Shown here piece after piece: positions 21,691 to 60,134 of a stretch of 64,000 nt of DNA. Origin of the DNA: a virus (taxonomy: Duplodnaviria > Heunggongvirae > Uroviricota > Caudoviricetes); the IMG/VR virus record IMGVR_UViG_3300042391_000580; one strand, 5' to 3'. The position numbers and the translations under genes are program-made. Within the stretch, counting starts at the first letter, position 1. Each line of letters starts with the position of its first letter. Under the pieces are notes generated by a model, which was given only the letters and a program-made list of their open reading frames with translations, was not told the DNA's origin and did not search any database.

Positions 21691-22058
21691 TGCAGTACAA
21701 AGATATAAACGAAGAAGTAGAGAACTGGAAAAACTCTTGGCAACAAAACCACTACATGGCTAAACTGACAGAAAAGCAAAGGGAAAAAGATTTCAGAGAA
21801 GGTTACATGAGAGGTTTTGAAATAGCTACAAAAATATCGGAAAAGAAAAACCTAGATATGATATTGAAAAGCATAGACACAGGTTTGCTAAATGAAATGG
21901 TTGCCTACGCAGAGAAAGATAAAGCAGAAGTAACACGAGTAGAGGTTATACAACACTCAGAGCCACACAATGGAAGAGCTTATACTAACTATAATGCTAA
22001 AGATGTTGAGGTACAATACCAAGATGGTGGTAAAACATTAAAAATATTTTGTAAGTAA
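21687..22058 (+). CDS. hypothetical protein
   Basis: ORF track; ATGA overlap with polymerase gene. Confidence 0.45.
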   Translation: MMQYKDINEEVENWKNSWQQNHYMAKLTEKQREKDFREGYMRGFEIATKISEKKNLDMILKSIDTGLLNEMVAYAEKDKAEVTRVEVIQHSEPHNGRAYTNYNAKDVEVQYQDGGKTLKIFCK

Positions 22059-28479: not shown

Positions 28480-31400
28480 TTATTCTTCTTCTGATATTTC
28501 TGCCCAGCCTCCTTCTTTTAGATCATTTTCATCTATAAGGATAGCTATTGGTATTAATGACTCATCTTTATTATAGTAGTCATATGTATCTCTCAAAGAT
28601 TTAAGGTTACCGGCATTCCATAAATCAAATGTAGGTTTTGCTCCAGTAACGTTCTTCAAGAAGTATATTTGTTGTTTTGTCATACCTTTAAACCTACCTC
28701 TATCTTCTACTTCTGTGTCGAATGCTCTGGTGATGTTAAATAAGTTTTCTAATTTTTGTACTCCTACTAGAGGCTCTTTTACAGAACTATAAAATTCACC
28801 AATTACCCCAAACTGTGTTGAAGATGTTTCTGTGGTTACCCTTTCTAACATATAAGCCGCAAATTGTGCTGCCCACATATCTTCTTCATCATCTGCCCAG
28901 TGTCCAACTCCAATTGTTAATAAAAACAATACTGAAAGGAATGCAAAATCAACCATTACTCTCCTGATGTTTTCTCTTTGTACATCATCACCATTTAAGT
29001 ACTGGCTTTTTAGTTCACCTAATGCAGATTTCATACCTCCTTTTTGTAAACCGTTGTTAAAATTTTGTACAAAAAAGTTATAAACTGAGAAGTAAGTACC
29101 CTCTTCCATTTGACCGGTTTGTAGGTTTAAGTGTCTTCTCTTGAACCTATTTGCTGCAGATATAGCTAACCACCCTTTGTGTGTCATTGCAAATCTACCT
29201 AGTACGTCTCTTTGCATAGAGGTTCTTTCCTCGTTGGTAATCATACCATCAATTCTTTCTACAACTTTCTTTAATTTAGTTATAACCCCAATCTCAATGT
29301 TTCTAAAATCTTTTTGAAACTGCTCATCGTTAGTTCTACCCATATCTCTAGCTAAACTATCATAGTCATAAGCTACTGTTCCGTCTTTTGGTGACATGTA
29401 GTTGTACAGGGTTTTATCTCTAAGTAAGTCCCATTGATTTGCCAGGTCTTTTTTAGTAGCTGACGGATTTACTGTTTTATATAAGGATTCAAATTTTTTA
29501 GAATCTACTAATTTACCTTCATATATTCTAAATCCATATAACTGAGAAAGCATTGCTTTAGACAAAGGTGCAAAGTTACCTGCTGTGTGTAGTATATACT
29601 TTGATTTAGCTAATACTCTAGGCCCTTTTGAGTACATAGAGTTTTCAAATTTATTACTTAAATCAAATACACCAAAATATTCTCCATATATAGATAGCTT
29701 AGATTTTGAGTCTATTTCTAAACTTTCCTTCATTGCAGGAAAAGCTATCTTTCTAAACTCTTTTGAAGCTAAATTCATAGATCCAGAATCTACATACTGA
29801 CCAACATATTTTTCTATAATCATAGATGCCTCAGCTGTAAGCCATGAAGTAACTGGTACTACAACATTCAATGCAAGAGAGTTATCTCTAATAAGTTTAT
29901 GCAACATATTTATTATCTTAGTTACATCAATTTGCCCTAGTACTGGTACAGTTACTCTCCAGTTTTTTCTTTCTTTTATACCAAATAAATTATGGTCGTA
30001 GTAAGATTGAAACATTTTGTAAGTGTTTGTAGATGTAGCATCTTTACCTTCTGGATAAGCTCTCTTTAAAACTAAATCATTAAGTGTAGCAAACTCAGAG
30101 AATCTTTCTTTTCTAGCTTTATATAACTGAGATTGTTGTGCAAATAACATAGAGCTATAGAATAAATCTGTAGATACGTCTGTTTCTTCTTCTAATTTTT
30201 TCAAAAAGTACTTCGGTATAATTTTCATGTTTGTTGCTTTTACTAAAGCCTCTCCCTCTACTTCTTCACCAAATGCTTGCTCATCTACTCTAAATCTAAC
30301 AGCATCTCTCCACCACTCTTTTATAGTCCCTCTTTTACCTTTTATTAAATCATTAGCTTTTTCTAGGCCGGTTTTTGAAACTTGTGGTGCTAAGTATAAG
30401 TTGTGTGTACCTAGTTCCCCATAAGATCTTAAACTTTCTCTTTGGAACTCCATGTATTCCTTGTACAAACTAAATAGTTTTTGATTAGTTGTAGCTTGAA
30501 TATTGCCTTCATTATCTAATATAGGGTTATTGTCAGCGTCTAACACAGGTCTAAAAAGGTCTACGAAGTTTTTATTCAAGTACTTACTAAGTTTAGGTTG
30601 TTTAGAACCACCTTCAAAATCCTCTTTGTAATTTGGGTTCTTAAACTTAATTTCCCCCATTTCGTAGTAAGAAAAATTATTACTAACTTTTACATCTCTT
30701 CTTTTGTTTAGCTCTGTTACTAATGTATACACATTCTGATTTCCATTTTTTAATTGGTCGTAAAAGTTTTGTAAACCTACTGGGGCAAATGCTTTATAAT
30801 AAGGTGCTAATTTTGTCTCTGCATATTTTAATTTTGCTGCTGGAATATCATCCTTATTTAATTCAGACAATTCGTTTATCCCCACAGTTCTTAGTATTAA
30901 TGCTTTGTGTCCCTCTGATACTCTTAACCCTTTTAATACATCATCTAAAGCGTCTGAAAATTGTCTTGCTTTCTTAGCATTTTCAACTGTCATATTTTCA
31001 AGAGCAAATTTGTATTTGCCTTCAGCAGTTGTTATTCTTGCGTCAGCTAACATATCGTAGTAAGACTGATTAGGCGTAGACTCAGAAACTCTATTCTCCT
31101 CTGTACCTAGACTAACTTTATCTTTAAATATAGTGTATAGCTCTACGGCCATTCTGTCTATTTCTTCAGATAATTCTATAACTTTACTTCTTTGTTGCGT
31201 TGACATTTCTTCAGCCATCGTGTTAGTAAAGTTTCTAGAGTCTTGGTATTGTTTTAATATAGATTTTCTAGATTGTAGTTTGTCTTTATAAGATTTTATT
31301 TTCTCTATCCAAGCTTGCTCTGAATTTGGGTCTTGGCTATATGAATCTATATAAGTCATCATGCTTTCTGATACATCAAAGTTATTCCAGAAATCATTAG

Positions 31401-34203
31401 AAAAACCTACGCTTGAGTTTAATATAAAAAATTCAACTGCTGCTTCTCTACCTTCTTCTAATTCAATCTTTTGAAGCTCTTCTAGAAATTTAGGTGCAAG
31501 TTTTTCAATATCTATTTTTTGCCCACCAGAAAGTCTTGCCTCTTCTTGCTTCTCAGCTAAAAAAGCTTGGTCTAATTTATTTATTTCAAAAGCTATCTTA
31601 GCCTCCTCACTTACAACTCCTTGAAGTTCATAGTATATTCCAGATACTTCTATAGAGTTTTCAGATGGGTTTTCAACTGGTTTTAGACCTGTTTTAATAT
31701 CCCCAAAACTTTCGAATAAAGATTTTAAACTTTTTCTTTTTAAGTTTATAGCATCTAATTCATACTTATCTTGAGATGTGTACCTTGGTAAACCTTTTTC
31801 ATTTTTAACTCTAGACATAAGACTACCTAAGTCTGTAGACAATAGTCTAAGCTCTGTTTTAGTAGTGTCACTTATTCCAAGTTTTTCATATTTATCATCT
31901 CTATTTTGATAATAATCTTCTGTAAAACTTCTCTCCACTCTTGAATTAACTGCATCATTAACTTCTTTTTCATAAGCTTTTTCTGCTGCCTCATCTGTTA
32001 TTTTTGGTAAGTCGTAGCTTTTTATACCCTTTATTATATCTTCGTCAGACATTGCTGTACCGCTATGAATCTTATAAGCTTGTAACTTTATATCTGTAAT
32101 GTCTTTTTCAAAAGCGTTAAAATCATATAAACTTGTTACATAACCTCCTTTTTCCATAAATTTAGGTAGGTCAGCTTCTGTAAAACCAAGTTTACGAATT
32201 GTATCTTGAAACTGTTTTGCTCTTACTAAATAGCTTTGTTCTGCATCTAGAGTCATATCTGCAATAACACTCCCTAAAATATTAAGTAGTGGATCATGTG
32301 CATGTGTGATTTGACCAAATGCTGAATAAAATAATTGTGTATCTCTAGTAGCAGTAGTAACTGCATCTCTTAGTTTTTGTCTAACTTCGTCATCAAAACT
32401 GTGTCTTATCATTAACCTGTCTATGATTCTGTCTAGTACATCATTTTGTACGTTATCTGCAGCCCCGGTTACAGCTGATACTTTTACAACAACTGCGTTA
32501 ATATCATTTACAATATCTGCTAAATCTGCATCCTCTTTTGATAGGGCTACTAATCTAGATAATACTGGTACAATGTTATCTTTCAAGCCTTGTAATACAA
32601 TACCCTCTTCATTAGATAAAGTCTCACCTCTTCTTTTAGATGTTTCAATAGCTGTAGATACATAGTCTGCTTGTCTTTTTGCTAAAGATATTAAGTCAAG
32701 TATTGAGCTTTTTGTAATAGCTTTATCTAATGCTGAGTTTAACATCTGTATACTAGCTGCAGATCCTCTACCGGCATTTCTAAGACTTCTTTCTTGGTCA
32801 AGTAATGATTTTACCAGTCTTTTTACAATAACATTCTTAGTATCAAGAACCACGTTTCCGCTTGCTTGTTGCTGATACATTCTAAAAGTCTTAGTTTTAG
32901 TTTTGTCTAAGTTTAAATACTTATTTACATCTTTGGTTAATAGCAAGTCCTCTACTTTTACCGTTAGTGCCTCTAAGTCAGTATAGAATGTATCCTTTAC
33001 AACTACAGAATTAAAAAACTTACCTAAAAGCTCAAAAATTCTTTCTATTATTGTTTTGTGTATTTCTGTTTTACCCTCTGTATTAAATCTTTCTTGTATA
33101 GCTTTTGCCAGTTCTTTACCTAATATCTCTCTTCTAACTAAGTTTTCAACTTGTTCAGTAGACATACTTGGGTTTTCTCTTGTGTACAATTCTCTATAAG
33201 ATTGTGAAAATTCTACATAAGAACTGGTTTTGTTTATATTTCTTAATAGGCCCTCTATCTCAGCATCATCCCAAGTTTCAACTATGAAGTGTGAAGTCTC
33301 TTCTGCTAATCCATCAATAGTCATCAGACCATCTTTGAATGCAATTACTTGTCTAGATACATCTAATAATGCTTGAGCTGATGGATCAACACCATTTCTA
33401 ATATTATAGCTATTTATGTAGCTGTTTATAGATGTCACCTTGACACCCATACTGTTTAAAAGATCCAAAAGATTCATTTTTAAAGACTCTTCATTAGTGT
33501 TCAAAGACTCTGTTGAGATACCTGATGGTAATGCATCTTTTACTGCATTGTTTATCATAAGCTCTACAGCTTCATCTTTACTAACAGACTTTTCTAACTC
33601 TCTTAGAGTAGTAGCCCTGAAGTCTTCTAAAGACATTGATTTATTACCTACTTGTACTTTATTCTTGTTGTTCAGTAATTCAATTCTACCGTCTTTGTAG
33701 ATCTTAAAGTTCTTTCTGTTTAGGTTGGTTTTGGCTTCCTCCTTTATGATCTGTTCATTTACTATTTGTAATGGCCCATGGTTACCAGCTGCTTGGTGGT
33801 AAGTTTTTCCATTTTCTATTATTTTTTGATCAGAAAGAATATCACTTTTGATCATGTTGTTTATAAACCCTTCATAGCTAGCCGGGTTTGTGTTTGAAGA
33901 CACTGAAACTAGGTTTTTAAACGTGTTTTCAATACCCATACCTATCTGTATATCCCCTCCTGCTGAGTTCTGTAAAGCTTCTTTGTAAGAATTGAACGTC
34001 ACACCTTTATCAGAAATAAAAGTGATAGGGCTTTGGTCGTTTATTTTTTCTGAATAAACATTTTTAAAAATAGACAAAGCTTCTTCTAAACTTTCTACAT
34101 GTGGAAGTCTAGCTATTTGTTTGAATAGTCTACTTTCTTTACCTTCTAGGTCAAAAACGTTTTTTATACTACCGTTTTTATTATAATTAATCGTACAGCT
34201 CAT
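28480..34203 (-). CDS. giant virion/ejected protein candidate (1907 aa) with C-proximal TM segment
   Basis: single uninterrupted ORF; own promoter; hydrophobic VMVDFAFLSVLFLLTIGVG near C-terminus; no recognised catalytic motif. Confidence 0.6.
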   Translation of the reverse strand: MSCTINYNKNGSIKNVFDLEGKESRLFKQIARLPHVESLEEALSIFKNVYSEKINDQSPITFISDKGVTFNSYKEALQNSAGGDIQIGMGIENTFKNLVSVSSNTNPASYEGFINNMIKSDILSDQKIIENGKTYHQAAGNHGPLQIVNEQIIKEEAKTNLNRKNFKIYKDGRIELLNNKNKVQVGNKSMSLEDFRATTLRELEKSVSKDEAVELMINNAVKDALPSGISTESLNTNEESLKMNLLDLLNSMGVKVTSINSYINSYNIRNGVDPSAQALLDVSRQVIAFKDGLMTIDGLAEETSHFIVETWDDAEIEGLLRNINKTSSYVEFSQSYRELYTRENPSMSTEQVENLVRREILGKELAKAIQERFNTEGKTEIHKTIIERIFELLGKFFNSVVVKDTFYTDLEALTVKVEDLLLTKDVNKYLNLDKTKTKTFRMYQQQASGNVVLDTKNVIVKRLVKSLLDQERSLRNAGRGSAASIQMLNSALDKAITKSSILDLISLAKRQADYVSTAIETSKRRGETLSNEEGIVLQGLKDNIVPVLSRLVALSKEDADLADIVNDINAVVVKVSAVTGAADNVQNDVLDRIIDRLMIRHSFDDEVRQKLRDAVTTATRDTQLFYSAFGQITHAHDPLLNILGSVIADMTLDAEQSYLVRAKQFQDTIRKLGFTEADLPKFMEKGGYVTSLYDFNAFEKDITDIKLQAYKIHSGTAMSDEDIIKGIKSYDLPKITDEAAEKAYEKEVNDAVNSRVERSFTEDYYQNRDDKYEKLGISDTTKTELRLLSTDLGSLMSRVKNEKGLPRYTSQDKYELDAINLKRKSLKSLFESFGDIKTGLKPVENPSENSIEVSGIYYELQGVVSEEAKIAFEINKLDQAFLAEKQEEARLSGGQKIDIEKLAPKFLEELQKIELEEGREAAVEFFILNSSVGFSNDFWNNFDVSESMMTYIDSYSQDPNSEQAWIEKIKSYKDKLQSRKSILKQYQDSRNFTNTMAEEMSTQQRSKVIELSEEIDRMAVELYTIFKDKVSLGTEENRVSESTPNQSYYDMLADARITTAEGKYKFALENMTVENAKKARQFSDALDDVLKGLRVSEGHKALILRTVGINELSELNKDDIPAAKLKYAETKLAPYYKAFAPVGLQNFYDQLKNGNQNVYTLVTELNKRRDVKVSNNFSYYEMGEIKFKNPNYKEDFEGGSKQPKLSKYLNKNFVDLFRPVLDADNNPILDNEGNIQATTNQKLFSLYKEYMEFQRESLRSYGELGTHNLYLAPQVSKTGLEKANDLIKGKRGTIKEWWRDAVRFRVDEQAFGEEVEGEALVKATNMKIIPKYFLKKLEEETDVSTDLFYSSMLFAQQSQLYKARKERFSEFATLNDLVLKRAYPEGKDATSTNTYKMFQSYYDHNLFGIKERKNWRVTVPVLGQIDVTKIINMLHKLIRDNSLALNVVVPVTSWLTAEASMIIEKYVGQYVDSGSMNLASKEFRKIAFPAMKESLEIDSKSKLSIYGEYFGVFDLSNKFENSMYSKGPRVLAKSKYILHTAGNFAPLSKAMLSQLYGFRIYEGKLVDSKKFESLYKTVNPSATKKDLANQWDLLRDKTLYNYMSPKDGTVAYDYDSLARDMGRTNDEQFQKDFRNIEIGVITKLKKVVERIDGMITNEERTSMQRDVLGRFAMTHKGWLAISAANRFKRRHLNLQTGQMEEGTYFSVYNFFVQNFNNGLQKGGMKSALGELKSQYLNGDDVQRENIRRVMVDFAFLSVLFLLTIGVGHWADDEEDMWAAQFAAYMLERVTTETSSTQFGVIGEFYSSVKEPLVGVQKLENLFNITRAFDTEVEDRGRFKGMTKQQIYFLKNVTGAKPTFDLWNAGNLKSLRDTYDYYNKDESLIPIAILIDENDLKEGGWAEISEEE

Positions 34204-34297: not shown

Positions 34298-37200
34298 TTA
34301 TTGACAGTTGAAATATTCATCGTCTATCTGTTTTAATTCTTCTTTAGAATAGTAATTTTTTGATGTCTTAAACACCTCTGGGCTATTTTCCAGGTATTGG
34401 TACTTGTTAAAGTTTACATCTGACAAAGGTTTTTCTATACCAGTTAGTTTAAAGTTAGGGTCTACTGAAGGCAGTTTGTTGTAAAACTTAACGTTCCCTG
34501 CTTCGTATATCATTTCAAAAACCCCTTGTGTTGTTCTTACAAATGTATCTGTTTCATTCTTTACAGCTAATACCCCATCTTCTATGTATCTGTAATCTCC
34601 GGATATTTTCTTAGCACTTTCAGGATTATTTGCAAAAAACTCTCTTTGGCTTGTTTGGCTGTCATAGTCTTCAAATACTAACTCTTCTGATGTCATTCCT
34701 AAATTCAAATTCTTAGATATTGCATCGTAGTCTGCCAAGTCTTTTTCAAATTCTAATGGGATAGACATTATTGCTTCCTCTTTAGATAAAGGGTCTTTTT
34801 CTACTAATTCTATTCCTTTTCCTGTAACCTTGAAGTACTTATTGTTTGTCTCTAGTATAAATCTATTGAAGTCTTTTACAAACTCTGTAACCAAATACTC
34901 TGGGCTAGATATTACACTACCTAAACTATCTGTTGATACTTTTATAGGAGTCACTACTAATGGGAAGCCAAAGAACTTTTTATACAAATATATCTTAGCC
35001 AGCTTATCAGGGTCTACTTCGTAATCTGCTACTTCAAGATTTGTTACTTCTTTTTCTACAAAGCTTCTTAAGTCTTCAATATTAGCTACTTCATCTGGTA
35101 ACATTTCAGGATACTCTAGCATTGTATCGTAAAGCTCCTCTAAGCTCTGCTCCTCTGTTTGTCTATAAATATCCCCTTGCTTTTTGACTAAACCAAAATT
35201 ATCAAACATTTGATACTCCGACATATCTGATTCAACAACTGTATCAAATTCATTATCTGTTTCTATTACAGCTGATTCTTCTGTGCTTGTATCAAATAAC
35301 TCTTTATAAATAGTAGAGTAGTTAATTATATTTTCCTCAGTTGGTCCTGTTTCTAGTAGATTTTCCATAGCGTCTAAAAACGCAAGTATATCTTCTCTAC
35401 TATGAGATAACACTTTAGTAGGAATGTCTCTTAGGTCAATACCGTTTGTCATAGCTTTCTTTTTAATAGAGGCTAATAATTTTACTACTGCATTAGGGTT
35501 TTCGTCCCAAACTTCTTCAGAAAACTCTTCGTTTATATATCTAATTTCCTCAGATAATTTAGAATTTTCTTCGTCAATCAATGTATTAGCTACAATGTTT
35601 TCTATGTCTTCTGCCTTATCAACTAACACCCCGTCTTTTGTAACCTTTATATTAACTAATTTATGATTCTTAGCTATATTATCTACTGAAGATTTAAAGT
35701 TAGAGTCTTTTGCATATTTATTGCTAAGATCTGGTAACAAATTATCTGAGATCTCTTCTTCAGAAATACCAGCTATATCTCTAGCTAACTCTGCTTCAAC
35801 TATAAATGGGTTTGCTATTTCTTGTTTTCCAAATATGTTTAAGCTTGTTCCAGTAAGTGTTATAAAGTTTTTATTGTATTCTATCTCAAAAGGTTCTGTA
35901 TTTTTTAATTTTAAATAAGCTTCTTTTATACTTCTTTGTAAGTCTAATGAGCTCATTATTTTTGTTGCCTCATACTTATTAAACACCCCACCTCTTTGTA
36001 AAGATACTAAATTAAAAGATATAATACCAGATTTTGTAATAGCACTTTCTAATTTTTCTAAAAGCTCCGATGAAGAGTTTACTCCAAGTGCCATAGCTGC
36101 ATTTCTTGCAACAACTTGGTCCTCTAATGATAAAGACTCTGTAGAATTATTTTTAAATTGCATCAAATCTTTAATCGAAGGCTCTCCGTTTTCATCATAA
36201 CCATTTGGTGCAAGCTTTCTCGCTGGTCTTTGCATTTCAAAATCAGATGTCTTTTTATACCCAAGTGATGTGTAGAACTTTTCAAGTCCGGCATTAGTAG
36301 TGTTTTTATCTCTACTAGAAATAGTCAATACTGTACTTTTACCTATTGAGTCTGTGTATTTTAAAGCTGTATTAAAAGCTTCTCTTGCTCTACCCTGGCC
36401 TCTAAATTCTTCTGGTGTTTCTACCAATTCCATTTCTATTTTGCCAGTAGGTTTTTCAGTAATTGGGTTTACTTCATTTCTAAAATAAACTTTACTTCCA
36501 TTTACATCTGCAACCATTCTTTCTCCAGCACTTTTTATGTTTAGTTCAGAGACCCAAGAAGGTAATAATCCTACTTTTTGTTCTGCAAAACTCATCATAT
36601 CATATACTTGGTTAGTCAAGATTTTAGCTCCCTCTGTATCACCATTTCTTCTAAGTACTCTAGCTTTATCTCTTAATTCGAAAGCTTTGTCGTTTACTCC
36701 AGAGAAATTAACCCAAGAGTTTTGACCTCTAGTCTCAGTTGTCATGGCAAGTCTAGCTAATGGAGAGTACATTCTAGAGTGTATATTCCATGCGTTTTCT
36801 TCTCCTAATGCACCAAAACCATTTCCAAATTTAGCATGCCCAAAGAAATCGTGTACAAATCTAAATATGTCATTTGCTAATAAAGGCTCCCCATTTACAT
36901 CTTTAAACTTAGTCTTTTGTAAAAGTGGGTTGTCTTTTCTTTGTTGAGCTGTTATAGCCTCATCCCCAAATCCAGACTCCGTTGAGAAAATCTTCATACG
37001 CTTATTACCACGTAAGTCAGCTATCATGTCGGCAGAGTTTTCATACGGCTCCGAATTATTTATCTCTGGTTTGTAACCATAGCTTAGTATTTTTTTATAC
37101 TGGTCTACAGTCTCTTTTACCATAGCTTTGTAAGCCGCTTTTGTTTTAGTATCGTTTGGTGTAGGTTGCATCTTATCAAACTCAGCTGCTATACTTTTGC

Positions 37201-40200
37201 TATTTTCTTTATTTAATTCCTTTATCGGTTCTATTGCATCAATGCTTATACCTTTCTCTAACATGTATTCATCAGCTATTTTTGATGCGTCCTCTAAAGG
37301 TGCATTAAATAACTTATTACCATCTACTATAGAAAAGTTTACATAGCTGTCAGAATCATTAAATCTCTTTTTGGCTTCTTGGCTTTTCTCATATACTTCT
37401 CTAAAGTCTCCAAAATACATATTTTTGACTCTTGCATAAGCACGTATGATATTCATACCACCAAAAGTTCCGGCATCTAAATGCACAGGTTTTCCGTCTT
37501 TTATGCCCCAATTAGCAATATCTCCTAAATCACCATAGATTATGTCGTAGTTTAAATACTCTTCTAATCCATAGTTTTTAAGTACTTCAACCAAGTCTGG
37601 GTTTTTAGTATCAAAGTCTGCTTGACTATATCTGTATAGTTCCATAAGCATTACCTCTGCATCTTCTGTACCATATTGTTCACCATTCACTATGTTGTAT
37701 ATAGGAATTTGATCATTTGGTTCAAGTTGAGTTAACTTTTCAGCTATAACATAATTAAGGCCAGTTTCATAAACTTGTGGAAGGACACCTTTACTTATAA
37801 GCTCTTCATTACCTTCTTGCATGTTTTGAGCTAGTCCTCTGGCATTATTTGCTACTTTTAGCACCTTACCCTCACCTAAATCAAAAACAACTCTGTCAGA
37901 GCCTTGAGATAACTTTACTAAGTTTGGTATATCAAATCTATCTCTTGCTACTTGGTTTACGTCATATTTATACCTAAGATAAGTACTATCTATACCTAGA
38001 TTTTTTTGCATTCTGGATCCAGATAATAATTCAGTGGCAGATGCTGATCCAAACTCTGCTAGTGTCATTGCTGATACTTGTTCAGCTGTGTAGTTTGATA
38101 ACCCAACTGCTGCTTTTATAGCACCCCAAACACTTTTTAACCACTCGCTTAAGCTTCCTTTTTTATTGCTTAACAATAATTTAGCCCCTTGATCACCTAT
38201 TACTTGTGCAAGGACTTCATTATTAAACTCTTCTGAACCTTCTTCTAGATCTGGTTGTGTGTTTTTTACAATATCTATGTATTGTTGAGCTTCTTCTTTA
38301 TTTTTTTCAACAAGAGATAGTCCAGATTTATATATGTCTTCTCTGTTTTCTTTTAGCCAATCTAGATGTAAATGTCCAAATTCATGTATTGGTGTATCTA
38401 ACCCCATTACATCGTTGTTCAAGTACACATCTCCTCTATAAGTAAAACCTGCAGTACTTAGTTTTATACCTTTTTCTAATAACTGTTTGCTAAATTTAAT
38501 ATCTTTGTTTATAGGCTCAACTAAAGTTTTATCTTTTATTGCAAATACAATTTGTCCTTTGTTACCTATATCTTCTCCTTTTATAATTTTTGCATTTTCT
38601 ACTTCTTTTATAAAAGCGTCAAGTTCTTCTTTAGGTAATTCTATTCCTTCTGCTAGTAAAGAGTATCTAATTCTAGTTTTCCACTCTTTTAAATCAGATA
38701 GATTGTCTTGGTGAACTGTTAATAAACCTTGGCCAAAACCTACTTTTTCTACTCCCCATCTTTTATTCCAATTATCTAGGTCTAAAATATCTGGGCTTTT
38801 GATTTTAAATTCTTCTATATTTCTACCAAAAACTCCGGCATATTTTTTTTGTACAGCAAAGTATTGTGTACCTTTATAGTTTGAATCAAACTCTCCATTT
38901 ATGCCTCTGTATACTGCAGGTAAAGATTCTATTTTATATTCTCTTATTAAAGCTGCTGCTTCTTCTTTTACTTCTTGTTCTGTTGAGTTTTCTGATAAGT
39001 ATACCTCTAAATATGAACCATCCACTAAATTAACTTCCCAGAAGTCTTCTTCTGTGTTAAAAAATAAAGAGTCTACATCTTCTTGTGACATAGTTACTTG
39101 CTTAGCTATTTTTGAATCTAAACCAAGGTTTACTAACTTAGCCTCTATCTGAGAGTTAGTCATTTGGAATACATTATTAGCTAACCCACTTAGTTCTAGC
39201 TTAGATATAATCTCTTGTGTTATCTCATTCTTAGAAGTCTCACTCAAGCTTTTAGAAAACATAGGTATAGACGACTTTAACTCAGAACGCATCTTATTTG
39301 TTATCTCAATATAAGGCTGTTCTGCTAAAGTCAGTTTGTCTGCGTTTATTTCTTGTGGTACATATTTTTCAAAATACTTTCTAGCTCCCCCTGCTGTGTT
39401 ATCTAAGTCTGAATTAGATAGTGTTTCTTCATCAACATACTCTACAAATTCTCCATTAACTCTTAAAACAAATCCATCCTCTTCTTCTGTAATTTCTACA
39501 TTAGATTTTTCTGCAAAGTTAACTGTTTCTAATTTAGCATCTTTGTCAAATCTTTGAGCTTCTTTTTGTGCTACTTTTGTTACAATATTGTCATAGAAAG
39601 ATTTCATACCTTCTCCACCTACTTCTAGGTCTAAGCCTGAGTACTCTTTACCTTGACCAGTTGACTTTAAGTCTCTTATTTCATCTAAGTCATTTACTAC
39701 TTTTTTTGCAAACTCTTTCCCAAAAAAAGATTCTAATTCTGCATCATCTCTTACACCTTTTGCACTTAAAATTTTACCGTCTTTTTTTACCTCGGCATTA
39801 TATTTAAACAAACTACTTCCAGCATAGCTTATCTCTATAGCATCTACTTGATTAGATAAACTATACATACTAGAAGATTGCTGTCCTGTAGCAAAAGCTA
39901 CACCACTGTACCCCTCTTGTGCTGCCATTTGTAAAACACGTCTTGTAGCTAAGCCAACCCATTGATCAGTATTTTTATAAGGCATTTCTTGTAAGCCAGA
40001 CTGATCAATATCAATAATATCTCTTTTTGCAGCAGCTATTTGTCTTTCTAAAGGTGTTACTTTTGAGTAGTAGTCTTGTATTACTCTAAAACCTTCTTGT
40101 TCAACACTTGGTAGATCTTCTACCCCAATAGTATTTTCAAGACTTTTTCTAAAATCTAATTCGTTTGCTCTTCTTTCTATAGTTGTATCAGCAACCTCTT

Positions 40201-41707
40201 TAGAGCCATAGTAGTTATTTTGTCCTGATACTTGTCCATCAACATATATTCTATAATCTCCATTGTTCTCTTTTACTGCTTCTACTCCTGTAGAATCACC
40301 TAACTTTTTACCAAAAGAGTTTACAGATTTAGCTATAGTTACATTTCCATACTCATCAATATTTGTAGTATAGCCTTTACCATCATTATAAATAACTCTC
40401 TGATAAGCATCCTTATCTATTTTTTTCTCTTCTTTAATCTTTAAAAGCTCCTCTGTTAAAGCTTTATATTTAGCTAATGCTATATCATTTTTAATTTGTA
40501 ATTTTCTATCAGTAAAACCTATCTTACGACCAGCTTGTGCCCAATCAGATTGTATCTCATTTACTACCAAAACTTTATCACCATTTGGTAAACCTTTCTC
40601 GTTTAACCTTATGTGAGCCAAAATATTACCTTCATCCCAATGAGATGATTTATACTCTTCCTTAATATAAGGTGTTAAGTTATTTCCGATAGCTACTTTA
40701 TCTCCAAAAATCTGGTTTATTTTTTCTATTTCTGTTCTTATTCTTGCATGTTCTTCTCTTTGTTCCTGGGTTGGTGCCTGCCCAAAGGGTATACTTAGTA
40801 TAAGTTTTTTTTCAGATATTTTTATTGATTTATATTGCTCAATTGCAGAATTTAATTTAGTGTCTGGCATCGTCAATAATATCTCTCTATAGTTTTCTCC
40901 CCCCTTTAGTTGATAACCTTGGTATTTTACATCTCCATCTTCTCTGTCTAATACTTCTTCAATTGCTGCTTTTTTTGCATTTTCTTGTGCACTATAATAA
41001 TCAAAGTTTTCATCAAAAGTATCTTCATCTGTTAAACCTATTTGGTCTAGTGTTATATAAGGCATAATTAAATTACCTTGGCCGGAGTACTTTATGTTAA
41101 ACCCATTACCGTCAAACTCTGCGTCTAAGTCATTAATGTCTATTTCAGGCTTACCCTTACTAACATCAACAATGCTAATTTGATTTGATTTAATATAATC
41201 TTCTACAACAGAAGCTGGTATGTTACCTGCTCTAGTATTGTTTTCTGCTACATAGCTGTTTAAATAATCTGCAAGTCCTATCCACTCAAGTTCTTGATTT
41301 ACATTTTTTACTCCACCATTCTTTTGTGTGTCTGTAAGCTGTTTTAACCAACCTTGTGTGTTTTTGGGATTTAAGTCAGTCAAATTGTTGATAGCAGACA
41401 AAGCATTTGAAAAGTAAGTACTATCTGGAGCTATTCTACTAAACTTTACAGCGTCTAGATTTGTTGCTAAATCTTTTTCAGATTTAACTAAATTGTTTAC
41501 TCTATTTTTTATAGATGTAACTTTTGCTTTCACCATATCCTTGAAGTCTTCAACTTCAGTCAAGGCATAAAGATTTAAGGCGGTCTTTTTATTACCGCCT
41601 GTTATATTCACTAATGTATCAAATAATTTACTTCTACTGCCATTTGCAGCTTCCACAAAATCAATATCCCCATTCTCGTCTTTATAAATTCTACATTTTA
41701 AGCTCAT
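34298..41707 (-). CDS. giant multidomain (polyvalent-like) protein (2469 aa): zincin HEFGH, protein-kinase-like segment, GNAT acetyltransferase motif
   Basis: HEFGHLH at 38372-38386; FDLGEGKVLKV...YGDLGDIANWG...HLDAGTFGG at ~37447-37930; RGQGRAREAFNTAL at 36377-36406. Confidence 0.6.
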   Translation of the reverse strand: MSLKCRIYKDENGDIDFVEAANGSRSKLFDTLVNITGGNKKTALNLYALTEVEDFKDMVKAKVTSIKNRVNNLVKSEKDLATNLDAVKFSRIAPDSTYFSNALSAINNLTDLNPKNTQGWLKQLTDTQKNGGVKNVNQELEWIGLADYLNSYVAENNTRAGNIPASVVEDYIKSNQISIVDVSKGKPEIDINDLDAEFDGNGFNIKYSGQGNLIMPYITLDQIGLTDEDTFDENFDYYSAQENAKKAAIEEVLDREDGDVKYQGYQLKGGENYREILLTMPDTKLNSAIEQYKSIKISEKKLILSIPFGQAPTQEQREEHARIRTEIEKINQIFGDKVAIGNNLTPYIKEEYKSSHWDEGNILAHIRLNEKGLPNGDKVLVVNEIQSDWAQAGRKIGFTDRKLQIKNDIALAKYKALTEELLKIKEEKKIDKDAYQRVIYNDGKGYTTNIDEYGNVTIAKSVNSFGKKLGDSTGVEAVKENNGDYRIYVDGQVSGQNNYYGSKEVADTTIERRANELDFRKSLENTIGVEDLPSVEQEGFRVIQDYYSKVTPLERQIAAAKRDIIDIDQSGLQEMPYKNTDQWVGLATRRVLQMAAQEGYSGVAFATGQQSSSMYSLSNQVDAIEISYAGSSLFKYNAEVKKDGKILSAKGVRDDAELESFFGKEFAKKVVNDLDEIRDLKSTGQGKEYSGLDLEVGGEGMKSFYDNIVTKVAQKEAQRFDKDAKLETVNFAEKSNVEITEEEDGFVLRVNGEFVEYVDEETLSNSDLDNTAGGARKYFEKYVPQEINADKLTLAEQPYIEITNKMRSELKSSIPMFSKSLSETSKNEITQEIISKLELSGLANNVFQMTNSQIEAKLVNLGLDSKIAKQVTMSQEDVDSLFFNTEEDFWEVNLVDGSYLEVYLSENSTEQEVKEEAAALIREYKIESLPAVYRGINGEFDSNYKGTQYFAVQKKYAGVFGRNIEEFKIKSPDILDLDNWNKRWGVEKVGFGQGLLTVHQDNLSDLKEWKTRIRYSLLAEGIELPKEELDAFIKEVENAKIIKGEDIGNKGQIVFAIKDKTLVEPINKDIKFSKQLLEKGIKLSTAGFTYRGDVYLNNDVMGLDTPIHEFGHLHLDWLKENREDIYKSGLSLVEKNKEEAQQYIDIVKNTQPDLEEGSEEFNNEVLAQVIGDQGAKLLLSNKKGSLSEWLKSVWGAIKAAVGLSNYTAEQVSAMTLAEFGSASATELLSGSRMQKNLGIDSTYLRYKYDVNQVARDRFDIPNLVKLSQGSDRVVFDLGEGKVLKVANNARGLAQNMQEGNEELISKGVLPQVYETGLNYVIAEKLTQLEPNDQIPIYNIVNGEQYGTEDAEVMLMELYRYSQADFDTKNPDLVEVLKNYGLEEYLNYDIIYGDLGDIANWGIKDGKPVHLDAGTFGGMNIIRAYARVKNMYFGDFREVYEKSQEAKKRFNDSDSYVNFSIVDGNKLFNAPLEDASKIADEYMLEKGISIDAIEPIKELNKENSKSIAAEFDKMQPTPNDTKTKAAYKAMVKETVDQYKKILSYGYKPEINNSEPYENSADMIADLRGNKRMKIFSTESGFGDEAITAQQRKDNPLLQKTKFKDVNGEPLLANDIFRFVHDFFGHAKFGNGFGALGEENAWNIHSRMYSPLARLAMTTETRGQNSWVNFSGVNDKAFELRDKARVLRRNGDTEGAKILTNQVYDMMSFAEQKVGLLPSWVSELNIKSAGERMVADVNGSKVYFRNEVNPITEKPTGKIEMELVETPEEFRGQGRAREAFNTALKYTDSIGKSTVLTISSRDKNTTNAGLEKFYTSLGYKKTSDFEMQRPARKLAPNGYDENGEPSIKDLMQFKNNSTESLSLEDQVVARNAAMALGVNSSSELLEKLESAITKSGIISFNLVSLQRGGVFNKYEATKIMSSLDLQRSIKEAYLKLKNTEPFEIEYNKNFITLTGTSLNIFGKQEIANPFIVEAELARDIAGISEEEISDNLLPDLSNKYAKDSNFKSSVDNIAKNHKLVNIKVTKDGVLVDKAEDIENIVANTLIDEENSKLSEEIRYINEEFSEEVWDENPNAVVKLLASIKKKAMTNGIDLRDIPTKVLSHSREDILAFLDAMENLLETGPTEENIINYSTIYKELFDTSTEESAVIETDNEFDTVVESDMSEYQMFDNFGLVKKQGDIYRQTEEQSLEELYDTMLEYPEMLPDEVANIEDLRSFVEKEVTNLEVADYEVDPDKLAKIYLYKKFFGFPLVVTPIKVSTDSLGSVISSPEYLVTEFVKDFNRFILETNNKYFKVTGKGIELVEKDPLSKEEAIMSIPLEFEKDLADYDAISKNLNLGMTSEELVFEDYDSQTSQREFFANNPESAKKISGDYRYIEDGVLAVKNETDTFVRTTQGVFEMIYEAGNVKFYNKLPSVDPNFKLTGIEKPLSDVNFNKYQYLENSPEVFKTSKNYYSKEELKQIDDEYFNCQ

Positions 41708-41776: not shown

Positions 41777-44700
41777 TTAACAAGGTTCATTTTTAGCATC
41801 ATCAACATCAGATTGTTGATCTGTATTTAGTCTAAAATACTCATCTATTAAGGATTGTACTAAAGGGTGATCTGATAAATCAGACTCTTGTGTTGTAAGA
41901 GCTTCATCAAGTAACATCATCTTATTAAAGATCTCTGTTGCTTTTTCTAAGCTTAGGTTTCCAGTAGCTATAGCATCTGAGTACCAATCCCTTTTTATTT
42001 CTACCATTTTGTCTAAGTTTATGATTGGCTTAGGTGAAGATAGTGGATTGTTTTCTATGTCTATCGCTAAAGAAGCTTCTGATACTAAATTCTCTTTTGT
42101 GTGTTCTGTTGACATCCATGTAGATACATCTACTGTTTGTTTTACTTTATTTAGGTCACTTATTGCTCTTAGTAACGGTTCAGAAAAATTCCCATTCATG
42201 TCAACTAAAGTCTGTGCGTCTTCTCCAACATGGTATAAATTATAAGAGGCTGGAGATAGTCCATTTACTGCTAAAGTTTGATTGAACTCTAAAACTGCAG
42301 ATCCTAAATTTTCAGTCTCCATTAACTTTTGTACTGCTGTGTCCCCTGCATTTGATGCCAACTCTTTTAATTGTATTGGGAAAGCTACTAAGTATTTACC
42401 TTGATTAAATATAATTACTGGTAACCCAGTTTTGTTAAGGTGATTACTTATGTAATCTTTTCTTACATTTTTAGTGTTACCTTTAAGTACTAATTTTCCA
42501 TCTTGTATATAACCGTAGTCAACAACAGCTTTTGGAGAAATATCAAAATACTTTATAGTACCACCTTCCATATTAAAGTTTGGTACACCTAAAAAGACAT
42601 GTTTAATAAAACTTTCTTTTGGTAATTGTATGTCTATATCTGCTTCAGTTCCTAATCCTTTCTCTTTTACTATTTTTAAAGCCTCTTCTCTAATAAGTAA
42701 GAACTCTGAGCTTTGGCTAGTATTGTAGTTAGCTTTTAGATCACCAAATTTTCTACCTCTAACATCTGATACGTTAATCTTAAGTTGGTCTGATAATAAT
42801 TTTTCTATCTTTAGAACTTCCGGAGACATTTTACCATCTTGGTCTATCATTACATCTCTGTCTTCAAGATCTTGTATAGCCTCTTGGTATTCTAGAATTA
42901 TCTTTTGATTATACTCATCGGTCAAATCTAGACTAAAGGTTACAGTGTCTCCAGGTACCATGTTGTAAAGCTCCATAGGTGAATAATCACTAGAGTCTTT
43001 AAAGTCTGTCTCCATTATCTCCCCCGTTTCATTGCTATAAACTGGCGAATACCCTGAATCTTTAGTAAAAGAGTTTTCCATGTAACCCATGTTAGCCTCT
43101 CTTAATACTTGCTCAACCTCTGATCCTTTTTTTATAGTTAGGCTTCCACCTTTATCTATAATTATAGTAGCTGTATTACCGTCTCTGAATGTTAAGACAA
43201 ATGTAGCACCGTACTTAACATTTTCAGCAACTTCTTGTATTGATATGTCTTTTGCTGTGTTTGGTACAGTTACTGTTTTATTATTAACAACTTCTGTTTG
43301 TACAAAAGCTACTGTATCTGCTAAATCCACTCTTGACAATAAGCCAGGAAGTGTCAAATGAGATATTGTAGTTCCAAATTTATTTCTGTTTATAAATACA
43401 TTTTGGTAAACTTGTAATACTTCTTCATTTCTAATAGCTTCCCCTGAATCGGTTTCTTTTGGCTCTTTCTTGGATATATTTACAATCTCTGTTTCAGTAA
43501 GTTCACTATTTATCTTAGGGTCTACAAACTGATTTACTATAATATCTTGTAATAACATATCACTTATAGATATACCAGTATCATTAGCTACATTTTCTAG
43601 TAACCTCCAATTAGCTAATCTTTCGTTAAGCTCTTGTAATCTTTTTATCTCTGCTTTTTTCAAAGAAGGTCTTGTAGTTGGTGTTAGCCTATTCCAAGTA
43701 TAAGGGCTTTTAAAAGATATTGTTTTATTGTCAATCTTAGGGTCTGCTAAAGCTCTTATTGCTAAGTCTTCGTACTCATCTAACTCTTCCTCTGTCATCA
43801 TAACAGGTACATCTGTACCATAATAGTCTAAAAGGTATGGACTGTTTTTGATCATGTCTACAACAGTTTCTTTTATAGTCTTCTTTCGAACTTCTTTTTT
43901 GGTTGTCTGACCATTTTTAGGTGCATATTTCTTTTCAATAGCGTCTAACTTAGCTTTTCTTTCTTTTTCAAGGCTTTCTGTACTATTAGAACTATTTCCA
44001 CCAACAAGATTCATCCTACCGTTTGAGAAAGTAGCTAAATTAAATGATGGTGGTATTCTTATACCTGCATCATTTGGGCTAACTGCCATTATATGTTCCA
44101 TCACAATATCTCCAAAATACTTATTTATATTAAGATTTTGAGTATTTATACTATTTGGGAAACCCATTATTACTAACTTGGTAGCTCCTCTATGATTTAT
44201 TTTACCGTCTATTAAAGCCTCTATTGAATTATATAAACCCTCTTTTGTAGTATTTACATTTGTGGTCCCTTCTGCCGAAGGTCCTGTATTAAGACCTGTT
44301 TTAAGTATCCCTTCTAGTGTTACTTCAGATGTTGTAAGATGTGATAAAAAGAAGAAGTCGTCTGGTAAACTTTCGATTCTATCTTTTAATTCTTTCTTGA
44401 GATTATCTTTTTCTTCTTTTGATAACTTGTTAAAGTCTTCTATATTTTGTATAGATGTACTTGGGGTATCAGAGTTTGATATTTTAGAATCATACTCATC
44501 ATTTACTTTTTGTATTTCTGCTTGTTTTTTAGCTTCTTTTTCTTCTATTGTAGGCTTATTTATTTTAGCACCTTTTTCGTTATCAATAACTTCTTTTACT
44601 GGTTCTAAATTCTCTAACCCTTGTACTATTGTATCTTCTGCTCTTTCTATAGAGCTTTCTGATAGCCCTCTTAAAAATTCTACAGTTATGTCGGTAGAGT

Positions 44701-58204: not shown

Positions 58205-58215
58205 TTTCTATATTT

Positions 58216-60123: not shown

Positions 60124-60134
60124 TTTTTATTCTT

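What the first reader, a model, noticed from the sequence alone, without database searches (positions are those of the whole stretch)
34298..41707. 2469-aa protein combines zincin, kinase-like and GNAT motifs (polyvalent-protein signature)
Three enzyme-like signatures appear in order along the protein. HEFGHLH is a zincin metallopeptidase HExxH motif, at residues 1108-1114 (38372-38386). Residues ~1260-1420 (37447-37930) carry a protein-kinase or aminoglycoside-phosphotransferase-like pattern. It reads FDLGEGKVLKV (Gly loop plus Lys), YVIAEKL, YGDLGDIANWG (cf HGDLHPGN) and VHLDAGTFGG (cf DFG). RGQGRAREAFNTAL...LGYKK is GNAT acetyltransferase motif A, at 36377-36406. Two further conserved-looking blocks are HWDEGNILAHIRLNE...VLVVNEIQSDWAQ near 40540-40650 and FVHDFFGHAKFGNGFGALGEENAW near 36800-36900. 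Fusion of several effector enzymes in one giant phage protein is the signature of virion-delivered polyvalent proteins that modify host targets or counter defence systems.
Basis: partly seen in the sequence, partly recalled or inferred. Interest (0 to 1): 0.8.

Follow-up and report, generated by a model that had tools for sequence, protein, structure and literature searches.

The report
Virion-borne multi-enzyme phage effector protein
This giant phage gene strings several enzyme-like modules (a likely metalloprotease, a stripped-down protein kinase, an anti-CRISPR-like acetyltransferase and an unknown enzyme-like domain) onto a protein whose relative is found in virus particles; it is a new example of a known class, the "polyvalent proteins" thought to be injected to disarm the host.

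Summary
It is a phage polyvalent protein. Its 584 homologues reuse its modules in shuffled order beside ART-PolyVal, Kinase-PolyVal, LPD23, LPD38 and InPase domains.

- **Mini-GNAT (about 1750-1830).** Its best solved relative is the anti-CRISPR acetyltransferase AcrVA5 (profile E 4e-6).
- **Zincin motif.** HEFGH (1108-1112) and Glu1164 are conserved in divergent homologues, but the zincin fold was not verified.
- **FVHDFFGH domain.** This ~260-aa domain has 33 invariant columns, about 2000 homologues, a confident model and no PDB structural match.
- **Virion link.** The last ~515 residues correspond to a free-standing virion protein detected by MS/MS (phi4:1 gp037) in the same syntenic slot.
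- **Cassette exchange.** Sister phages swap the kinase or the N-terminal modules for unrelated cassettes at sharp DNA breakpoints.

This is a new member of a known kind, and it contains one possibly new enzyme fold. Packaging of the enzyme array, injection and all enzyme activities are inferred, not shown.

The parts
34298..41707 (-). Whole gene: 2469-aa polyvalent protein. No predicted transmembrane segment.
41408..41707 (-). D1, residues 1-100. N-terminal frame kept in all orthologues, about 92% DNA identity to sister phages. Function unknown.
40478..41425 (-). D2, residues 95-410.
   Evidence: no PDB sequence match; no Pfam
39203..40045 (-). D3, residues 555-835. Conserved module of unknown function (P..TDQWVG..R, TG.QS..Y.L, GGEGMK.FY..I..KV..KEA.R.DK). 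It travels with D2 and D4 in many other giant proteins.
38003..38545 (-). D4, residues 1055-1235. Candidate gluzincin-type metallopeptidase module.
   Evidence: No peptidase profile or PDB match.
38372..38386 (-). HEFGH, residues 1108-1112. H1108 is nearly invariant; E1109 and H1112 are invariant in 18 homologues at 26-69% identity.
38216..38218 (-). Glu1164, invariant, in the segment NNEVLAQVIGD. Candidate third zinc ligand.
37322..38002 (-). D5, residues 1236-1462. Protein-kinase-like domain lacking most of the C-lobe. Key residues: G1269/S1270 loop, K1284 (strand 3), D1393...N1399 (catalytic loop), D1411-A-G (DFG equivalent). It is an exchangeable cassette.
36533..37321 (-). D6, residues 1463-1725. 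Widespread enzyme-like domain of unknown function with no structural match in the PDB. 33 invariant columns, including N1612, D1613, R1616, H1619, D1620, H1624, E1636, N1638, E1658, T1659, R1660, Q1662, N1663, Q1710 and K1711.
36203..36505 (-). D7, residues 1735-1835. Mini-GNAT acetyltransferase-like domain, closest to AcrVA5. Motif A is R1769-G-Q-G1772-R-A1774.
34301..35842 (-). D8, residues 1956-2469. Virion module, an end-to-end homologue of the free-standing 517-aa virion protein gp038 of Cellulophaga phage phi17:2 (= gp037 of phi4:1, MS/MS-detected).
28480..34203 (-). Context: downstream 1907-aa gene. Homologue of virion protein phi4:1 gp035 / phi17:2 gp036. Its C-terminal third resembles crAss001 Gp49, annotated 'putative RNA-polymerase subunit'.
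41777..47356 (-). Context: upstream 1859-aa gene. Homologue of virion protein phi4:1 gp038 / phi17:2 gp039.

Best explanation
The gene encodes a phage polyvalent protein: one soluble 2469-aa polypeptide made among the virion genes. Its C-terminal ~515 residues are a conserved virion protein module. About 1950 residues of exchangeable enzyme modules are attached in front of it.

The proposed course of events is as follows. The C-terminal module takes the whole chain into the particle, next to the two neighbouring giant virion proteins. At infection it is expelled with the DNA. The HExxH module then cuts the chain into separate units. The freed units act at once on host proteins. The truncated kinase-like domain would phosphorylate targets. 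The AcrVA5-like mini-GNAT would acetylate targets, possibly a defence nuclease. The D6 domain would carry out an as yet unknown reaction using a His/Asp/Glu/Arg site.

Sister phages exchange individual modules, which fits an arms race with host defences.

Shown here: the domain identities (kinase-like fold, GNAT-like core, conserved HExxH...E), the homology of the C-terminus to a virion protein detected by MS/MS, the synteny, and the cassette exchange.

Inferred: packaging of the full-length chain, ejection, self-cleavage, catalytic activity and the targets.
For: **Membership of the polyvalent-protein network**
- The protein has 584 homologues. Many are 2000-4000 aa long and carry the same modules in different orders, together with LPD23, ART-PolyVal, Kinase-PolyVal, InPase, LPD38, DUF7178, SLT and GGDEF domains.
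- Structural relatives of D6 in BFVD sit in proteins labelled ART-PolyVal-like, LPD, NAT_SF or head-morphogenesis.
- D6 also lies inside a 2772-aa 'large polyvalent protein' and inside a 2986-aa protein between a lysozyme and a tailspike.

**Kinase-like domain (D5)**
- The model has pLDDT 93.9.
- K1284, D1393, N1399 and D1411 are conserved among the 26 aligned sequences (invariant or at least 90%), drawn from 1721 cluster representatives found. They sit where kinase topology expects them.
- The only weak PDB sequence hit is the glycine-loop/lysine region of the effector kinase SteC.

**Mini-GNAT (D7)**
- The profile hits AcrVA5 (6IUF) at E 4.3e-6, followed by about 40 GNATs.
- Sub-threshold hits to eight GNAT Pfam families are seen.
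- AcrVA5-like mini-GNATs from Bacteroidota phages do inhibit Cas12a (PMC10799925).

**Zincin motif (D4)**
- E1109, H1112 and E1164 are invariant and H1108 is nearly invariant.
- 0.007 HExxH motifs are expected by chance.
- Zincin peptidases are the commonest hub domain of polyvalent proteins and were proposed to process them (PMC5512222).

**Virion link**
- Residues 1956-2468 align end to end with phi17:2 gp038 (E 2e-28).
- Its phi4:1 orthologue gp037 and both flanking giants are annotated from experimental MS/MS of virions.
- The gene order is conserved.

**Cassette exchange**
- Against a sister phage the gene is 90-92% identical in DNA up to residue 1235. There is no similarity across 1236-1462. 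Identity is 80% from 1463 to the end.
- In another sister phage, residues 76-841 are replaced.

**Precedent for importance**
- A 2198-aa putative polyvalent protein is a fitness gene in phage PTXU04 (PMC11879866).
Against: - There is no direct evidence that this protein, or its N-terminal 1950 residues, is in the virion. The MS/MS-detected homologue lacks the enzyme array.
- None of D4, D5 or D7 reaches a curated family threshold.
- The zincin fold of D4 was not modelled. D4 shows no profile similarity to peptidases or to a SprT-like region beyond HExxH.
- D5 does not match Pfam Kinase-PolyVal. It lacks an obvious helix-C glutamate and the His of HRD. The Asp-to-Asn spacing is 6 rather than 5. 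It could therefore be atypical, use another substrate class, or be inactive.
- D7 is only about 95 residues long, the size of AcrVA5. Similarity to AcrVA5 says nothing about its target.
- D2, D3 and D6, more than a third of the chain, have no assignable function.
- No cleavage sites were identified.
Confidence: 0.7

Rival explanations
1. It is an envelope-penetration or ejectosome protein. In this reading the enzyme-like modules act on the cell wall or membrane during DNA entry, as a peptidase or lysin, rather than on cytoplasmic host proteins.
For: - Homologues of D6 are annotated 'lysin', 'glycosylase' or 'structural protein' in phage records.
- One D6-bearing giant protein lies between a lysozyme and a tailspike.
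- The gene lies in the virion block, which also holds a transglycosylase-bearing ORF.
- Polyvalent proteins can include wall-degrading domains such as SLT and glucosaminidase in homologues.
Against: - No lysozyme, amidase or wall-peptidase family or fold matches any part of the protein.
- A kinase-like domain and a GNAT need ATP and acetyl-CoA, which are cytoplasmic.
- There is no transmembrane segment.
- The 'lysin/crystallin' names are unsupported annotations.
Confidence: 0.12
2. It is a late protein that works inside the producing cell or inside the capsid on phage components. Examples would be a maturation protease, or phosphorylation or acetylation of virion proteins. In this reading it is not an injected anti-host effector.
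For: - It is encoded with structural genes.
- Zincin domains in phage P1 DdrB and N4 vRNAP have been linked to processing and encapsidation (PMC5512222).
- The conserved D1 and D7-D8 frame could serve assembly.
Against: - Rapid cassette replacement between phages that are about 90% identical is hard to explain for housekeeping assembly functions. It is typical of conflict proteins.
- The closest GNAT relative is an anti-CRISPR.
- The domains also occur as stand-alone genes and in many unrelated giant proteins.
Confidence: 0.1
3. The enzyme-like modules are inactive relics or binding decoys (pseudoenzymes) carried by a structural protein.
For: - D5 lacks a clear helix-C Glu and the HRD His.
- None of the domains passes curated thresholds.
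Against: Catalytic-type residues are invariant across very divergent homologues, including stand-alone versions:
- K1284, D1393, N1399 and D1411 in D5
- H/E/H/E in D4
- the motif A glycines in D7
- 33 invariant columns in D6

Confidence: 0.05

Closest known systems
Polyvalent proteins of phages and conjugative elements (Iyer, Burroughs, Anand, de Souza, Aravind 2017, PMC5512222)
   Same: It is a giant single polypeptide with several unrelated enzyme domains: a zincin-type peptidase, a C-lobe-less protein kinase and a GNAT. It is encoded next to virion genes. Its modules are shared with proteins carrying ART-PolyVal, LPD and InPase domains. Modules are shuffled.
   Different: The kinase-like, HExxH and GNAT modules here do not match the Pfam models built from that work (Kinase-PolyVal PF18762 was tested and not met). 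The virion-linked module is a C-terminal Lightbulbvirus gp037-type virion protein; no MuF, portal or N4-vRNAP-type module was detected. D2, D3 and D6 match no Pfam family.
AcrVA5 (PDB 6IUF) and AcrVA5Bsp of Bacteroidota phages
   Same: D7 is a mini-GNAT of about 95 residues with the acetyl-CoA motif. It is the best solved relative by profile (E 4.3e-6). It occurs in phages of the same host phylum.
   Different: AcrVA5 is a free 92-aa protein. D7 is an internal domain of a 2469-aa protein linked by homology to the virion. Its target is unknown and Cas12a inhibition is untested.
Cellulophaga phage phi4:1 gp037 / phi17:2 gp038 (517-aa virion structural protein)
   Same: End-to-end homology with residues 1956-2468 (25% identity, E 2e-28). 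It occupies the same position between homologues of the two flanking giant virion proteins.
   Different: The Cellulophaga protein is only the virion module. It carries no enzyme array.
Minimal bacterial effector kinases NleH1 / OspG / SteC, RIO kinases, and the phage T7 protein kinase as a functional precedent
   Different: There is no significant sequence similarity beyond the glycine-loop/lysine stretch. D5 has an inserted beta-hairpin and extra helices, a 6-residue Asp-Asn spacing, and a conserved GLxQN helix instead of a clear helix-C Glu.
Virion-packaged enzymes: N4 vRNAP, P1 DarB/DdrB, T4 Alt
   Same: The concept is the same: large enzymes packed in the capsid and expelled with the DNA to act before any phage gene is expressed.
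   Different: No sequence relationship was detected. No polymerase, methylase-helicase or ADP-ribosyltransferase domain is present in this protein.

Membership tests
Polyvalent proteins (Iyer et al. 2017) | Two or more unrelated catalytic or effector domains in one polypeptide of a phage or conjugative element | tested here: met
   Kinase-like fold, GNAT-like core, conserved HExxH...E, plus three further conserved modules
Polyvalent proteins (Iyer et al. 2017) | Domains shared with the polyvalent-protein domain network | tested here: met
   Homologues combine D2-D3-D4, D6 and D7 with LPD23, ART-PolyVal, Kinase-PolyVal, InPase, LPD38, RadC and SLT
Polyvalent proteins (Iyer et al. 2017) | Phage versions are encoded among late/virion genes | tested here: met
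   Flanked by homologues of MS/MS-verified virion proteins. The whole 28-64 kb minus-strand block is made of virion-protein families
Polyvalent proteins (Iyer et al. 2017) | Packaged in the virion and delivered into the host with the DNA | not testable with these tools
   Only indirect: the C-terminal module is homologous to virion protein phi4:1 gp037
Zincin-like metallopeptidase (MPTase of polyvalent proteins) | HExxH with a downstream Glu as third metal ligand, conserved in the family | tested here: met
   H1108 nearly invariant; E1109, H1112 and E1164 invariant in 18 homologues at 26-69% identity. 0.007 HExxH expected by chance
Zincin-like metallopeptidase (MPTase of polyvalent proteins) | Zincin fold, or a match to a peptidase profile or structure | tested here: inconclusive
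   No Pfam or PDB profile match. hhalign against a SprT-like region aligns only the HExxH.
Protein kinase-like superfamily | Protein-kinase-like fold | tested here: met
Protein kinase-like superfamily | Strand-3 Lys, catalytic-loop Asp and Asn, and metal-binding Asp (DFG) conserved in the right order | tested here: met
   K1284 is invariant; D1393, N1399 and D1411 are conserved in at least 90% of sequences. N1399 directly precedes the strand 7-8 hairpin and D1411 follows it. A helix-C Glu is not evident.
Pfam Kinase-PolyVal (PF18762) | Match to the family model, or profile similarity to a member | tested here: not met
   No hit in the query or in 26 family members at E<=0.1. hhalign against the PF18762 region of P0032 gave probability 0.5%.
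GNAT acetyltransferase superfamily | Acetyl-CoA motif A (Q/R-x-x-G-x-G/A) and the strand4-helix3-strand5-helix4 core recognised by profiles | tested here: met
   In R1769-G-Q-G1772-R-A1774, G1770, G1772 and A1774 are at least 90% conserved. About 40 of 50 PDB profile hits are GNATs aligned on this core. Eight GNAT Pfam families hit at sub-threshold level.
GNAT acetyltransferase superfamily | Score above Pfam's curated gathering threshold | tested here: not met
   Acetyltransf_1 scores 17.3 bits against a 20.7 cut-off for the query segment. Nothing is found on the whole protein.
AcrVA5-type anti-CRISPR acetyltransferase | Sequence relationship to AcrVA5 | tested here: met
   Profile of 14 D7 sequences against 6iuf_A: E 4.3e-6, covering 69 of its 96 residues. 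6IUF is confirmed as AcrVA5 in PMC11021501.
AcrVA5-type anti-CRISPR acetyltransferase | Acetylates and inactivates Cas12a | not testable with these tools
The precedent in Bacteroidota phages comes from PMC10799925.
Lightbulbvirus gp037-type virion protein | Full-length homology and conserved gene position | tested here: met
   Residues 1956-2468 against residues 21-516 of the 517-aa gp038 of phi17:2, E 2e-28. Same slot between homologues of gp036 and gp039.
Phage lysin (as some D6 homologues are annotated) | Match to a muralytic enzyme family or fold | tested here: not met

The most novel reading that the evidence does not exclude

Together with an AcrVA5-like acetyltransferase and a new family of C-lobe-less kinases, D6 would form a pre-made anti-defence kit. 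This kit would be fused to a virion protein in a phage lineage distantly related to crAss-like phages. It would be kept polymorphic by cassette exchange, so that inhibitors are present at the instant of DNA entry.
Probability: 0.3. Interest if true: 0.75.

Novelty: new member of a known kind. Interest (0 to 1): 0.5.

Why it matters
Polyvalent proteins are predicted to be the first phage weapons to reach the host, yet almost none has been tested.

This example is unusually tractable for four reasons:
- Its domain borders are marked by natural recombination breakpoints.
- Its virion module has a free-standing, MS/MS-verified counterpart.
- Two of its domains have clear biochemical predictions, ATP-dependent phosphorylation and acetyl-CoA-dependent acetylation. 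The acetyltransferase is related to a proven anti-CRISPR.
- D6 is a widespread phage domain that has no family name and no structural relative among solved structures.

Natural alleles in which the kinase is swapped for other cassettes give ready-made comparisons for asking which host defences each module overcomes.

Tried and rejected
- **Family scans of the whole protein.** Pfam and NCBIfam gave only noise. PHROG gave only two unknown-function families.
- **Nucleotide search against phages.** No match.
- **Word-indexed homologue search with D5 alone.** It returned nothing although close homologues exist. This is a tool limitation and cost one search.
- **D5 as a member of Pfam Kinase-PolyVal.** Rejected.
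- **D4 compared with a SprT-like zincin region.** Only the HExxH aligns.
- **PDB sequence-profile searches.** D2, D3 and D4 gave nothing. D6 gave only designed helical proteins, which I judged spurious.
- **D6 as a lysin, glycosylase, beta/gamma-crystallin or RelA/SpoT domain,** as annotated in some phage records. Rejected for lack of any family or fold support.
- **AFDB50 fold search.** The library was unavailable.
- **Alternative cassettes of sister alleles.** No Pfam assignment except LPD23.
- **The 1907-aa neighbour as a crAss-type virion RNA polymerase.** It is homologous to crAss001 Gp49, annotated 'putative RNA-polymerase subunit', at only 23% identity. It has no DxDxD motif and no PDB match, so this stays open.
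- **Transmembrane segments in the protein.** None found.
Full report
**Observation.** The window carries a 2469-codon ORF on the minus strand at 34298..41707. It sits in a 36-kb block of large minus-strand ORFs that starts at a strand switch near 28.4 kb. The nucleotide range given for the GNAT motif is off by about 15 nt. The range given for HEFGHLH covers HEFGH only. The protein contains only 13 histidines, so 0.007 HExxH motifs are expected by chance. The identical protein is called on three other public contigs.

**First pass.** The whole protein gives nothing in Pfam or NCBIfam. PHROGs gives two unknown-function families, at residues 1250-1429 and 1519-1670. No phage record is similar at the DNA level. 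Translated searches and a protein search found 584 homologues. BLAST coverage splits the chain into modules:
- D1: residues 1-100
- D2: 95-410
- D3: 555-835
- D4: 1055-1235
- D5: 1236-1462
- D6: 1463-1725
- D7: about 1735-1835
- D8: to the C-terminus

Homologues 2000-4000 aa long carry these modules in other orders. They sit beside LPD23, ART-PolyVal, Kinase-PolyVal, InPase, LPD38, DUF7178, RadC, SLT and GGDEF domains. These are the domain families defined for 'polyvalent proteins' by Iyer et al. 2017 (PMC5512222).

**Kinase-like module (D5).** An exhaustive profile search found 1721 cluster representatives (E<=1e-3), both inside giant proteins and as stand-alone proteins of 180-450 aa.
- Across 26 of them, G1269, R1272, K1284, G1291, L1292, Q1294, P1310 and G1316 are invariant. 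S1270, D1393, N1399, W1400, G1401, D1411 and G1413 are at least 90% conserved.
- No member hits any Pfam family. The only PDB sequence hit is the glycine-loop/lysine stretch of the effector kinase SteC (E 0.014).
- An AlphaFold model built with this alignment has pLDDT 93.9.
- In the model K1284 lies in strand 3. D1393...N1399 precede a two-strand hairpin. D1411-A-G follows that hairpin. This is the kinase order of catalytic loop, strands 7-8 and DFG.
- The domain lacks most of the C-lobe, as Iyer et al. described for polyvalent-protein kinases. It is not detectably a member of Pfam Kinase-PolyVal.
- A helix-C glutamate and the HRD histidine are not evident, so activity is plausible but unproven.

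**GNAT module (D7).**
- A profile of 14 sequences at 23-72% identity hits PDB 6IUF chain A at E 4.3e-6. It then hits about 40 GNAT acetyltransferases, all aligned on the motif A/B core.
- 6IUF is AcrVA5 (PMC11021501). AcrVA5 is the anti-CRISPR that inactivates Cas12a by acetylation (abstract of 10.1101/2021.11.16.468554).
- The query segment alone gives sub-threshold hits to Acetyltransf_1, _7, _10 and _CG. Six of the 14 members hit GNAT families.
- R1769-G-Q-G1772-R-A1774 fits the acetyl-CoA motif, and G1770, G1772 and A1774 are at least 90% conserved.
- AcrVA5-like mini-GNATs from Bacteroidota phages inhibit Cas12a in vitro (PMC10799925).

**HExxH module (D4).**
- In 18 homologues at 26-69% identity, G1087, F1088, E1109, H1112, V1147 and E1164 are invariant, and H1108 is nearly so.
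- This is the HExxH-plus-distal-Glu pattern of gluzincins, and of the polyvalent-protein metallopeptidases described in PMC5512222.
I hold the zincin call at roughly 0.7.

**FVHDFFGH module (D6).**
- A profile search found 1961 homologues. Many are stand-alone proteins of 224-480 aa. None has a Pfam domain or an informative name.
- Forty-two sequences share 33 invariant columns. These include N1612, D1613, R1616, H1619, D1620, H1624, E1636, N1638, E1658, T1659, R1660, Q1662, N1663, Q1710 and K1711.
- The model is confident (pLDDT 91.4, pTM 0.89): a helical domain with a small four-stranded sheet.
- In sequenced phages D6 lies inside a 2772-aa 'large polyvalent protein' and inside a 2986-aa protein between a lysozyme and a tailspike. 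The 'lysin/crystallin/glycosylase' labels have no support.

**D2 and D3.** They have no Pfam or PDB relative. D2, D3 and D4 travel together in many other giant proteins.

**Virion link and context.**
- Residues 1956-2468 align with residues 21-516 of the 517-aa gp038 of Cellulophaga phage phi17:2 (25% identity, E 2e-28).
- In phi17:2 and phi4:1 that gene lies between homologues of the window's 1907-aa and 1859-aa neighbours. Homologues of the next window ORFs follow.
- In phi4:1 all three are annotated 'virion structural protein, based on experimental MS/MS proteomics'.
- The protein is therefore a virion protein with about 1950 residues of enzyme modules added at its N-terminus.
- The C-terminal third of the 1907-aa neighbour also resembles crAss001 Gp49, which places the phage near crAss-like and Lightbulbvirus phages of Bacteroidota.

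**Cassette exchange.**
- Orthologues in the same genomic slot keep D1 and D7-D8 but differ inside.
- Against the P0003 allele, DNA identity is 90-92% for residues 1-184 and 260-1235. There is none for 1236-1462. It is 80% from 1463 to the end.
- Against the P0014 allele, only residues 1-75 and 842 to the end are similar.
- The replacement cassettes have no Pfam assignment except LPD23. By eye, one contains another HExxH (HELIH) and one a possible methyltransferase motif. I did not verify either.

**Mechanism.**
- Shown: the domain identities, conservation, synteny, homology to a virion protein, and modular exchange.
- Inferred from the polyvalent-protein model (PMC5512222) and from precedents (N4 vRNAP, P1 Dar proteins, T4 Alt; my own knowledge): the chain is packaged through its C-terminal module, expelled with the DNA and processed by D4. 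Its kinase-like, GNAT and D6 units then modify host targets immediately on entry.
- A putative polyvalent protein of similar size is a fitness gene in phage PTXU04 (PMC11879866).
- Rival readings are less well supported, for the reasons given under rival explanations. They are an envelope-penetration enzyme, an assembly enzyme and a pseudoenzyme scaffold.

**Verdict.** The protein is a new member of a known kind. The parts worth following up are D6 (no structural match in the PDB, very widespread), the AcrVA5-like domain carried by a protein whose C-terminal homologue is a virion component, and the natural cassette polymorphism.

Noticed in passing
window 28480-34203 (-): The 1907-aa ORF directly downstream is a homologue of the MS/MS-verified virion protein phi4:1 gp035. 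Its C-terminal ~690 aa resemble crAss001 Gp49, annotated 'putative RNA-polymerase subunit' (about 23% identity). It has no DxDxD motif, no PDB sequence match and one hydrophobic segment at residues 1746-1764. Whether it is a virion RNA polymerase is open.
   Followed up: partly
window 41777-47356 (-): The 1859-aa ORF directly upstream is a homologue of phi17:2 gp039 / phi4:1 gp038, a structural protein detected by MS/MS. Identity is 34% over the first ~650 aa and weaker further on. It has no Pfam or PDB match.
   Followed up: partly
window 57272-63929 (-): Two separate ORFs match different parts of one 2289-position PHROG (phrog_37948, the family of phi17:2 gp043). The 1264-aa ORF (60135-63929) matches profile positions 1099-1739. 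The 310-aa ORF (57272-58204) matches positions 2050-2286. A 635-aa ORF with no family (58216-60123) lies between them. The gene appears split or rearranged relative to the Cellulophaga phages.
   Followed up: no
window 55002-57200 (-): A 732-aa ORF whose N-terminal ~230 aa match a transglycosylase PHROG (phrog_4067). It is a likely wall-degrading virion protein, separate from the polyvalent gene.
   Followed up: no
window ~28400: GC skew and AT skew change sign exactly where the plus-strand block meets the minus-strand virion block. The plus-strand block holds replication and nucleotide-metabolism genes: ribonucleotide reductase at 11580-13226, DNA polymerase at 22058-24001 and an exonuclease at 27190-28425.
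   Followed up: no
L005:10001-17569 and L007:10001-16513 versus window 34298-41707: Sister phages carry alleles of the gene with sharp recombination breakpoints. The kinase cassette (residues 1236-1462) or residues 76-841 are replaced by unrelated sequence, while the flanks stay 80-92% identical in DNA. A short segment (residues 185-259) is also replaced in L005.
   Followed up: yes
P0001 residues 1234-1517; P0017 residues 1238-1796: The cassette that replaces the kinase in several alleles contains another HExxH (LRHELIHEM). Another replacement contains a VYDIGGSEGG stretch that looks like methyltransferase motif I. Neither has a Pfam match.
   Followed up: partly
window 34298-41707 (-): Histidine is very scarce: 13 in 2469 residues. 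At least nine of them lie in the conserved blocks (H356, H365, H1108, H1112, H1114, H1409, H1619, H1624, H1643).
   Followed up: partly
window 44262-45269 (+) and 60727-61983 (+): Long plus-strand ORFs (335 and 418 aa, GTG starts) lie antisense inside the giant minus-strand genes. They are probably by-products of the strongly skewed composition of the coding strand rather than genes.
   Followed up: no
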